DNA of 49,111 bases. Source: a virus (Duplodnaviria; Heunggongvirae; Uroviricota; Caudoviricetes). Position numbers and translations under genes: made by a program. Of this stretch, positions 7,287-7,414 are shown piece after piece (positions within the stretch are counted from its first letter, which is position 1; every line of letters starts with the position of its first letter). The notes beneath the pieces were generated by a model that was given only the letters and a program-made list of their open reading frames with translations, was not told the DNA's origin and did no database searches. The DNA lies in the IMG/VR virus record IMGVR_UViG_2529292911_000007. The stretch is one strand, 5' to 3'.

Positions 7287-7317
7287 GTTATCACCTAGTT
7301 AAAAAACCTATTATTCA

Positions 7318-7330
7318 ACAATTATTGTTG
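7318..7330. promoter_or_regulatory. 13-bp perfect palindrome AACAATTATTGTT upstream of the ImmA-like gene (putative operator)
   Basis: Seen directly; lies between the cI stop and the ImmA-like start, near a TTGACG -35-like hexamer (7347-7352, minus strand). Confidence 0.3.
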
Positions 7331-7414
7331 TGCACCTGATAGCTAACGTCAAGCCTAATTTATTGCCTTACTACAGTAAGCTGAAAAGCGAAGTGCATAA
7401 TTTTGTTCTGATTT

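What the first reader, a model, noticed from the sequence alone, without database searches (positions are those of the whole stretch)
7287..7414. Operator-like perfect palindrome and promoter-like elements between cI and the ImmA-like gene
The 128-bp spacer contains a short hairpin (CTTACTgtAGTAAG), a TTGACG -35-like hexamer and the perfect palindrome AACAAT-T-ATTGTT just upstream of the RBS of the ImmA-like gene. This suggests the module may be autoregulated by its own HTH domain rather than simply read through from PRM.
Basis: seen in the sequence. Interest (0 to 1): 0.35.

Follow-up and report, generated by a model that had tools for sequence, protein, structure and literature searches.

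The report
Cassette-borne promoter downstream of prophage cI
The 128-bp gap after the prophage repressor gene belongs to an inserted toxin-antitoxin-like gene pair and carries that pair's own conserved promoter, whereas the eye-catching perfect palindrome is mostly the promoter's -10 box plus a lineage-specific mirror copy, so this is an ordinary regulatory region and not a demonstrated operator.

Summary
None is statistically unusual in this sequence taken alone.

**Promoter: supported.** The whole spacer (7287-7414) belongs to a mobile two-gene cassette, an HTH-M78 "ImmA/RmrA-like" gene plus a DUF4411 PIN-like gene. The cassette sits between the cI stop codon and a conserved backbone terminator. 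I fetched 12 homologous cassettes by protein similarity (53-100% aa, several genomic contexts). Eleven keep exactly TTGACG-17-AACAAT at the same distance from the start codon, while the flanking bases diverge. A sister clade has TTGACC-17-AATACT at the same place.

**Operator: not supported, not excluded.**
- The left arm of the palindrome is the invariant -10 box.
- The right arm is only semi-conserved. The gap between the arms is 1, 2 or 3 nt, and the right arm is absent in several lineages and in the whole sister clade.
- The right arm overlaps the predicted transcription start.

**Hairpin:** weak, not conserved and without a U-run, so most likely noise.

**Read-through:** no terminator separates cI from the cassette, so PRM read-through should occur in addition to the cassette promoter, not instead of it.

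Verdict: a new member of a known kind, of low interest.

The parts
7415..8107 (-). cI-type repressor gene (HTH plus S24 autopeptidase). Its TAG stop at 7415-7417 is the right-hand boundary of the cargo slot.
   Evidence: Pfam Peptidase_S24 1e-18 and HTH_3. RefSeq annotation in IAI1. Phages with the same cI 3' end but different cargo lose homology exactly after this stop codon.
7287..7414 (-). 128-bp 5' regulatory region that travels with the cassette and is not phage backbone.
   Evidence: The spacer is low in GC like the cassette.
7367..7380 (-). Short inverted repeat CTTACT-gt-AGTAAG, judged incidental.
   Evidence: -3.3 kcal/mol with z = -0.47. No T-run and not called by the terminator scan. 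Not conserved in homologous cassettes.
7353..7366 (-). A/T-rich stretch just upstream of the -35, resembling an UP element.
   Evidence: An invariant or near-invariant AA lies 6-7 nt upstream of TTGACG in 11 lineages. Function is inferred.
7347..7352 (-). -35 hexamer TTGACG.
   Evidence: Invariant in 11 of 12 protein-fetched lineages. TTGACC in the sister clade.
7324..7329 (-). -10 hexamer AACAAT, which is most of the left arm of the palindrome, 17 bp after the -35.
   Evidence: CAACAAT is invariant in the same 11 lineages. AATACT occupies the same position in the sister clade.
7316..7330 (.). Perfect palindrome CAACAAT-N-ATTGTTG. The left arm is the -10 box and the right arm covers the predicted transcription start (about 7316-7319).
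   Evidence: The right arm is only semi-conserved and its spacing varies.
7292..7295 (-). Shine-Dalgarno core GGTG, 5 nt before the ATG at 7286.
   Evidence: Conserved in all aligned lineages.
6147..7286 (-). 379-aa protein with an N-terminal Xre-like five-helix domain, an M78 (ImmA/IrrE) metallopeptidase with HExxH, and a helical C-terminal domain. It resembles RmrA.
   Evidence: Pfam PF06114 1e-13. PADLOC capP and RmrA profiles. H224, E225 and H228 are invariant. AF2 model with pLDDT 85. CapP, IrrE and PprI fold hits. PDB 9vzy_A at E = 7e-21.
5639..6150 (-). DUF4411 (PIN-like) gene whose start overlaps the upstream stop (ATGA). In this window it is split by a 1-nt deletion in an A-run near 5998.
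   Evidence: Pfam PF14367 on both fragments. Intact 170-aa gene in IAI1. Difference list and sequence context.
5606..5633 (-). Intrinsic terminator of the phage backbone (CCCGGCCACCGTGCCGGG followed by TTTTCTTTTG), the left-hand boundary of the cargo slot.
   Evidence: Conserved downstream of eight different cargos.

Best explanation
The spacer is the 5' control region of a mobile two-gene cassette, an HTH-M78 regulator/antitoxin-like gene translationally coupled to a DUF4411 PIN-like nuclease gene. The cassette occupies the variable slot between cI and the immunity-region terminator of a lambdoid prophage, the position that rexAB holds in lambda.

The spacer carries the cassette's own sigma-70 promoter:
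- an A/T-rich upstream stretch;
- the -35 hexamer TTGACG;
- a 17-bp spacer;
- the -10 hexamer AACAAT;
- a predicted start about 7316-7319;
- a leader of about 30 nt and the ribosome site GGTG.

In a lysogen the cassette should therefore be transcribed in two ways: by read-through from PRM/PRE, because no terminator intervenes, and from this internal promoter.

The perfect palindrome is the -10 box plus a start-site-proximal block that happens to mirror it in this lineage. It is not a conserved operator. The short hairpin is noise.

What is shown: the elements themselves, the cassette boundaries and the conservation. What is inferred: promoter activity, the start site, and the idea that an independent promoter keeps the regulator/antitoxin supplied when PRM is shut off.
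For: **Cassette boundaries.** Homology among phages that share this cI 3' end stops exactly at the cI stop codon. It resumes a few nt before a conserved terminator.

**Promoter conservation.**
- I fetched 12 homologous cassette lineages by protein similarity. They lie downstream of several different repressors, of dinI and of ydcA, or in a roughly 400-bp intergenic gap next to non-phage genes.
- Eleven of the 12 have exactly TTGACG-N16-CAACAAT, with its last base 30-40 nt before the ATG.
- All 13 promoter columns are invariant against 2 of 83 other columns (p = 3e-14).
- The Morganellaceae/Xenorhabdus clade has TTGACC-17-AATACT at the same place in four distinct sequences. The promoter geometry is kept while the -10 sequence differs.
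- A metagenome scan for the motif plus the ribosome site returned mostly homologous cassettes.

**Read-through.** There is no terminator and no stable RNA structure in the spacer.

**Right arm of the palindrome.**
- The gap between the arms is 1, 2 or 3 nt.
- The right arm is absent in L096, L121, L124 and the TTGACC clade.
- Where present, it is part of a longer non-symmetric conserved block, aATTGTgAT.AT.GG.
- A purine lies at the 7th nt after the -10 in 10 of 11 lineages.
Against: - No transcription start data are available.
- The -10 (AACAAT) is weak, and in the single sequence the match is no better than chance.
- The eight columns after the -10 are more conserved than background (7.4 against 5.7 of 11, p = 0.004). 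ACAAT-N3-ATTGT recurs in four lineages. Some selection on a symmetric site therefore cannot be excluded.
- The invariant C before AACAAT and the invariant T six nt upstream of the hexamer are not explained by standard promoter rules.
- The lineages are related, so counts of invariant lineages overstate independence.
Confidence: 0.62

Rival explanations
1. The promoter is real, and the palindrome CAACAAT-N-ATTGTTG is the operator through which the N-terminal HTH of the ImmA-like protein represses its own promoter, as in type II toxin-antitoxin autoregulation. Cleavage or inactivation of the protein would derepress the cassette.
For: - The palindrome overlaps the -10 and the predicted start, the usual place for a repressor site.
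- The N-terminal 65 residues model as a five-helix Xre-like bundle with a weak match to controller protein C.BclI.
- The protein aligns over its full length with PDB 9vzy_A, deposited as an "HTH cro/C1-type domain-containing protein".
- ACAAT-N3-ATTGT is present in L095, L130, L090 and L123, and weaker versions in L131, L115 and L137.
- The columns after the -10 are more conserved than background.
- An HTH-dependent regulatory mechanism in ImmA/Rosmer-type antitoxins has been proposed in the literature (PMC10440598).
Against: - Half-site spacing differs between lineages (gap 1, 2 or 3).
- There is no right arm in L096, whose predicted recognition helix is almost identical, nor in L121 or L124.
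- No inverted repeat is present in the TTGACC/AATACT clade.
- The invariant left arm is already explained by its role as the -10 box.
- Perfect inverted repeats are not enriched upstream of 79 distant homologues.
- Pfam detects no HTH in the N-terminus, even at E = 10.
Confidence: 0.25
2. Nothing in the spacer is functional. The motifs are chance features of AT-rich DNA, and the cassette is expressed only by read-through from the repressor promoter PRM.
For: - Single-sequence statistics are unremarkable.
- The cassette lies within the unit from cI to the terminator, with no intervening terminator.
- The literature assumes that cargo in this slot shares the repressor promoter (PMC8585504).
Against: - The exact hexamers and their spacing are conserved in 11 of 12 lineages down to 53% protein identity, while the flanks diverge.
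- The conservation holds in contexts with no repressor gene upstream (L090, L095, L130, L131).
- A second clade keeps the promoter geometry with a different -10.
Confidence: 0.08
3. The conserved blocks or the palindrome serve another DNA-level role. Candidates are a binding site for a host or phage factor, or a self-immunity element comparable to the aba DNA element that spans the 5' end of bstA in the same prophage slot.
For: - A 63-bp DNA element overlapping the start of bstA, downstream of cI, suppresses BstA (PMC8585504). This shows that such elements exist in this slot.
- The invariant C before AACAAT and the invariant T six nt upstream of it are unexplained.
- A second CAACAA-N3-TTGTTG lies inside cI at 7957-7971.
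Against: - The geometry fits a sigma-70 promoter exactly.
- The cI-internal copy belongs to the cI allele regardless of cargo.
- There is no positive evidence for any other factor.
Confidence: 0.05

Closest known systems
Lambda cI-rexA-rexB immunity operon (PRM/PRE read-through plus the internal PLIT promoter, ended by a terminator)
   Same: Accessory genes sit directly downstream of cI on the same strand, inside the repressor transcription unit and before a terminator. An additional internal promoter is present. The slot is a known hotspot of mosaic diversity (PMC8585504, citing Degnan 2007). The cargo swaps seen here support this.
   Different: The cargo is unrelated to RexAB. The internal promoter precedes the whole cassette rather than only the second gene. 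The details of PLIT come from my own knowledge and were not checked here.
Phage "morons": inserted genes that bring their own promoter (Hendrix-type mosaic cargo)
   Same: A low-GC insert with a promoter that travels with it between unrelated contexts.
   Different: This cassette has no terminator of its own. It uses the backbone terminator.
Type II toxin-antitoxin autoregulation by Xre-HTH antitoxins (for example MqsA, HipB or HigA binding palindromes that overlap their promoters)
   Same: An antitoxin-like first gene with an N-terminal Xre-like domain, an overlapping second gene that encodes a PIN-like nuclease, and a palindrome over the -10 and start site in this lineage.
   Different: The palindrome is not conserved in spacing or presence among homologues. 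No binding data exist. The operators of the named systems are recalled from my own knowledge.
RosmerTA (RmrA HTH-M78 antitoxin plus variable RmrT toxin) and the ImmA/Rosmer zone of the NetFlax network
   Same: The same antitoxin architecture. Association with PIN-like toxins is noted in PMC10440598. DUF4411.1 downstream of HTH-DUF955 fusions was predicted as a three-component toxin-antitoxin system in PMC5499597. PADLOC RmrA profiles hit the protein.
   Different: The hits are weak (E between 6e-8 and 1e-3). DUF4411 matches no PADLOC toxin model. Neither toxicity nor anti-phage activity has been tested for this pair.
Protease-controlled repressor switches: ImmR/ImmA, DdrO/IrrE(PprI), CapH/CapP
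   Same: An M78 protease fold closest to CapP and IrrE/PprI, with the catalytic HExxH motif conserved.
   Different: Here the HTH-like domain is fused to the protease, and no separate repressor substrate gene is present in the cassette.

Membership tests
Sigma-70 promoter | -35 and -10 hexamers 16-18 bp apart, with A at position 2 and T at position 6 of the -10 | tested here: met
   TTGACG-17-AACAAT scores 9 of 12.
Sigma-70 promoter | The match exceeds chance in the single sequence | tested here: not met
   11 sites in 3.1 kb against 8.6 +/- 2.9 in shuffles.
Sigma-70 promoter | Hexamers and spacing conserved in orthologous upstream regions while the flanks diverge | tested here: met
   11 of 12 protein-fetched lineages. 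13 of 13 promoter columns are invariant against 2 of 83 other columns, p = 3e-14. The sister clade has TTGACC-17-AATACT.
Sigma-70 promoter | Mapped primary transcription start and promoter activity | not testable with these tools
   No transcript data are available here.
Toxin-antitoxin-type autoregulatory operator | Inverted repeat overlapping the promoter core or the start site | tested here: met
   7316-7330 overlaps the -10 (7324-7329) and the predicted start.
Toxin-antitoxin-type autoregulatory operator | Symmetry and half-site spacing kept among homologous cassettes | tested here: not met
   The gap is 1 nt (window), 2 nt (L189/L198) or 3 nt (L095, L130, L090, L123). There is no right arm in L096, L121, L124 or the TTGACC clade. 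Inverted repeats are not enriched in 79 distant loci.
Toxin-antitoxin-type autoregulatory operator | The regulator has a DNA-binding HTH domain | tested here: inconclusive
   No Pfam HTH hit. AF2 gives a five-helix N-terminal bundle with a weak C.BclI match (TM 0.51, E 1.5). The full-length homologue 9vzy_A is named an HTH cro/C1-type protein.
Toxin-antitoxin-type autoregulatory operator | Specific binding of the protein to the site, with repression | not testable with these tools
   Needs gel-shift, footprinting or reporter assays.
Intrinsic terminator (for the CTTACT/AGTAAG hairpin) | Stable G+C-rich stem followed by a U-run | tested here: not met
   Not called by the terminator scan. -3.3 kcal/mol and followed by GCAAUAAAUU. 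Not conserved.
RosmerTA-like HTH-M78 antitoxin plus toxin pair | First gene encodes an HTH plus M78 peptidase with an intact HExxH motif | tested here: met
   PF06114 1e-13. RmrA profiles down to 6e-8, some spanning residues 20-314. H224, E225 and H228 are invariant.
RosmerTA-like HTH-M78 antitoxin plus toxin pair | Adjacent, co-transcribed toxin gene | tested here: inconclusive
   A DUF4411 PIN-like gene overlaps by ATGA and is always present in homologous loci. It matches no PADLOC toxin model, is frameshifted in this window, and its toxicity is untested.
RosmerTA-like HTH-M78 antitoxin plus toxin pair | Protection against phage infection | not testable with these tools
   Needs an experiment.
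rexAB-type cargo slot of the lambdoid immunity operon | Located between the repressor stop codon and the operon terminator, on the same strand, with no intervening terminator | tested here: met
   Eight different cargos lie between the same two boundaries.

The most novel reading that the evidence does not exclude
The HTH-M78 fusion is a self-contained sensor and repressor. Its N-terminal domain would sit on the -10/start-site palindrome and hold the cassette promoter low. A phage- or DNA-damage-derived signal, as for CapP and IrrE, would trigger the M78 domain to remove or inactivate the HTH. That would both derepress the cassette and release the DUF4411 nuclease. The differing half-site spacings among lineages would then reflect co-evolving operator and repressor specificities that insulate cassettes from one another.
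Probability: 0.12. Interest if true: 0.5.

Novelty: new member of a known kind. Interest (0 to 1): 0.22.

Why it matters
The result shows that cargo in the slot downstream of cI need not depend on the repressor promoter alone. This cassette brings a promoter that has stayed fixed while the cassette moved between repressor-linked, dinI-linked, ydcA-linked and chromosomal contexts.

For a toxin-antitoxin-like or abortive-infection pair this matters. An independent promoter would keep the labile or regulatory partner supplied when PRM is switched off during induction. That could prevent the prophage from aborting its own lytic cycle. This last step is inference.

It also gives a precise, cheap experimental handle (13 conserved bases and one right arm) for the uncharacterised HTH-M78/DUF4411 family. 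Beyond that, it is an ordinary regulatory region.

Tried and rejected
- **Terminator or attenuator role for the hairpin:** rejected. The hairpin is weak, has no U-run and is not conserved. The whole spacer folds worse than its shuffles (z = +1.3).
- **Known RNA family in 5300-8300:** none credible.
- **Second palindrome inside cI as a partner operator:** CAACAA-N3-TTGTTG at 7957-7971 gives 2 matches against 0.23 expected. Rejected as cassette-linked, because the same site is present in the same cI allele carrying other cargos.
- **General palindrome signature upstream of 79 distant homologues:** no enrichment. 2.5% reach p <= 0.05. The test is crude, counting perfect repeats only and using approximate start codons.
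- **Population variation in E. coli:** uninformative. 33 of 5426 genomes carry the cassette, and all are at least 99% identical in the spacer. One plasmid-collection record carries it.
- **First viral pattern scan:** it returned nothing because I wrote the spacer one base too long. The corrected scans are.
- **Literature:**
  - No experimental work on DUF4411/HTH-M78 regulation was found.
  - No paper was found for PDB 9vzy.
  - No paper was found for the PhiR phages whose records name HipA/HipD and GevT/GevA cargos.
  - Two searches failed on term syntax.
- **Recognition helix against right arm:** I looked for co-variation between the predicted recognition helix (alignment A1) and the presence of the right arm. 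There is no pattern.

Full report
**What is at the coordinates**

The window is a lambdoid prophage of the E. coli IAI1 type. 33 of 5426 complete E. coli genomes carry the same cI plus cargo at 98-99.9% identity.

All features below are on the minus strand.
- cI occupies 7415-8107. It has an HTH and an S24 autopeptidase domain.
- It is followed by the 128-bp spacer 7287-7414.
- Next comes a 379-aa Peptidase_M78 (ImmA/IrrE) gene at 6147-7286.
- Last is a DUF4411 (PIN-like) gene whose start overlaps the upstream stop as ATGA.

- CTTACT-gt-AGTAAG lies at 7367-7380.
- TTGACG lies at 7352-7347.
- The palindrome is one base longer per arm than reported: CAACAAT-N-ATTGTTG, 7316-7330.
- GGTG lies 5 nt before the ATG.
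The left arm of the palindrome is therefore a -10-like hexamer.

**Chance**

Taken alone the sequence is unremarkable.
- The 9-of-12 promoter match is one of 11 in 3.1 kb, against 8.6 +/- 2.9 in shuffles.
- A perfect inverted repeat with arms of at least 7 nt and a loop of at most 4 nt appears in 7.5% of Markov-1 simulations of the spacer. The window holds 40 of them.
- The hairpin folds at -3.3 kcal/mol and is matched by 53 of 200 shuffles.
- The spacer RNA as a whole folds worse than its shuffles.
- No Rfam family matches credibly.

**Whose DNA is the spacer?**

Phages that share the 3' end of this cI carry other cargo, annotated as HipA/HipD, GevT/GevA or unknown genes. They lose homology exactly after the cI stop codon. 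Homology returns a few nt before a conserved intrinsic terminator at 5606-5633.

Two things follow.
- The whole spacer belongs to the low-GC cassette.
- The slot lies inside the transcription unit from cI to the terminator. This is the position of rexAB in lambda and a known mosaic hotspot (PMC8585504).

No terminator lies between cI and the cassette. Transcripts from the repressor promoter should therefore read into it.

**Comparative test of the promoter**

The ImmA-like protein has many full-length homologues. I fetched loci by protein identity, not by DNA motif.

This gave 12 lineages at 53-100% amino-acid identity. In all of them DUF4411 follows. Their contexts differ:
- downstream of several different phage repressors;
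- downstream of dinI;
- downstream of ydcA;
- in a roughly 400-bp intergenic gap next to non-phage genes.

Eleven lineages have exactly TTGACG-N16-CAACAAT, with its last base 30-40 nt before the ATG, and also share a conserved GGTG. The 16-nt spacer between the blocks and the flanks have diverged. All 13 columns of the two blocks are invariant, against 2 of 83 other columns (Fisher p = 3e-14). An AA 6-7 nt upstream of the -35 is also nearly invariant, like the proximal part of an UP element.

The twelfth lineage (Morganellaceae), together with three further sequences from a later viral and Xenorhabdus sample, has TTGACC-17-AATACT at the same place. The promoter geometry is kept while the -10 sequence changes. 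A promoter predicts that outcome and a protein-specific operator does not.

Two viral lineages (L187, L188) have neither motif. A metagenome scan for the motif plus the ribosome site returned 11 stretches, of which 8 are upstream of homologous genes.

I conclude that the cassette carries its own sigma-70 promoter. The predicted start is about 7316-7319. Promoter activity itself is inferred.

**Comparative test of the operator**

The invariant half of the palindrome is the -10 box. The other half behaves differently.
- The window has a gap of 1 nt and 7-nt arms.
- L189/L198 have CAACAAT-GA-ATTGTG, a gap of 2.
- L095, L130, L090 and L123 have ACAAT-N3-ATTGT.
- L131, L115 and L137 have weaker versions.
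- L096, L121 and L124 have none.
- The TTGACC clade has none.

L096 lacks the right arm although its predicted recognition helix (KKLNKFLNG) is almost the same as here (KKINKFLNG).

The eight columns after the -10 are more conserved than background (7.4 against 5.7 of 11, p = 0.004). However, the conserved block (aATTGTgAT.AT.GG) extends asymmetrically beyond the repeat. Its best-kept feature is a purine at the 7th nt after the -10 in 10 of 11 lineages, where transcription should start.

Upstream regions of 79 distant homologues show no excess of perfect inverted repeats.

Evidence on the N-terminal domain is mixed.
- Pfam sees no HTH.
- The AF2 model (pLDDT 85) has a five-helix N-terminal bundle with a weak match to C.BclI.
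- The protein aligns end to end with PDB 9vzy_A, deposited as an HTH cro/C1-type protein.

A DNA-binding domain is therefore plausible. The palindrome, though, is not supported as its conserved target. I put the operator reading at about 0.25.

**What the cassette is**

- The M78 domain has invariant H224, E225 and H228.
- It is closest in fold to CapP and IrrE/PprI.
- It hits PADLOC RmrA (RosmerTA antitoxin) and capP profiles.
- DUF4411.1 downstream of HTH-DUF955 fusions was predicted to form a three-component toxin-antitoxin system (PMC5499597).
- ImmA-type antitoxins paired with PIN-like toxins form a hub of the NetFlax network, next to the validated RosmerTA defence systems (PMC10440598).

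No experimental work on this particular pair was found.

**Mechanism proposed**

In a lysogen the cassette is transcribed by read-through from PRM and from its own promoter. The own promoter explains how the cassette functions in contexts without a repressor gene upstream. It would also keep the first gene product supplied when PRM is off during induction. That last step is inference.

The hairpin is noise. The palindrome is most likely the -10 box plus a start-proximal block that happens to mirror it in this lineage.

**Verdict**

Interest is low.

Noticed in passing
window 5990-6005 (DUF4411 gene, 5639-6150, minus strand): The PIN-like gene is split into two ORFs by a 1-nt deletion in an A-run. 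The window has A6 where IAI1 has A7, and IAI1 encodes an intact 170-aa protein; the other complete E. coli genomes were not compared base by base at this run. This is either a sequencing error in a homopolymer or a toxin-inactivating mutation.
   Followed up: partly
L166 (E. coli ATCC 43886; also E2528-C1), homologous to window 6147-7286: An IS1 element is inserted inside the ImmA-like gene while the downstream DUF4411 gene stays intact. Either the nuclease is not toxic without its partner at native expression, or the insertion is polar on it.
   Followed up: partly
window 7957-7971 (inside cI): There is a second exact CAACAA-N3-TTGTTG palindrome, giving 2 matches against 0.23 expected with up to 1 mismatch. 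It is present in the same cI allele in phages with other cargo, so it is linked to cI and not to the cassette. It is probably coincidence.
   Followed up: yes
window 5606-5640 and 7414-7417; loci L001-L009: The cargo slot has sharp boundaries. Homology between phages ends exactly at the cI stop codon and resumes a few nt before a conserved terminator. At least six different cargos lie between them, annotated as HipA/HipD, GevT/GevA, a lipoprotein and unknown genes.
   Followed up: yes
L095:1325-2864 versus L130:1601-3140: These two loci share 88% identical upstream DNA (400 nt, including the promoter and the ydcA context). Their ImmA-like proteins are only 52% identical. This suggests allele replacement with a breakpoint near the start codon.
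   Followed up: partly
L188:1440-1475: A 56%-identical viral homologue lacks the TTGACG/CAACAAT promoter. It has a different 7-nt-arm inverted repeat (TGCATGA-N7-TCATGCA) just upstream of its ribosome site.
   Followed up: no
window about 10750-11700: A second low-GC island (about 30-38% GC) holds two minus-strand ORFs of 161 and 125 aa between the replication genes and the downstream region. It is probably another cargo insert.
   Followed up: no
window 7287-7310; L001:3489-3512: The U-rich leader just before the ribosome site differs between otherwise near-identical E. coli copies: GG followed by T6 here, G followed by T8 in IAI1, and GG followed by T7 in some viral contigs. This is homopolymer length variation in the 5' UTR.
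   Followed up: no
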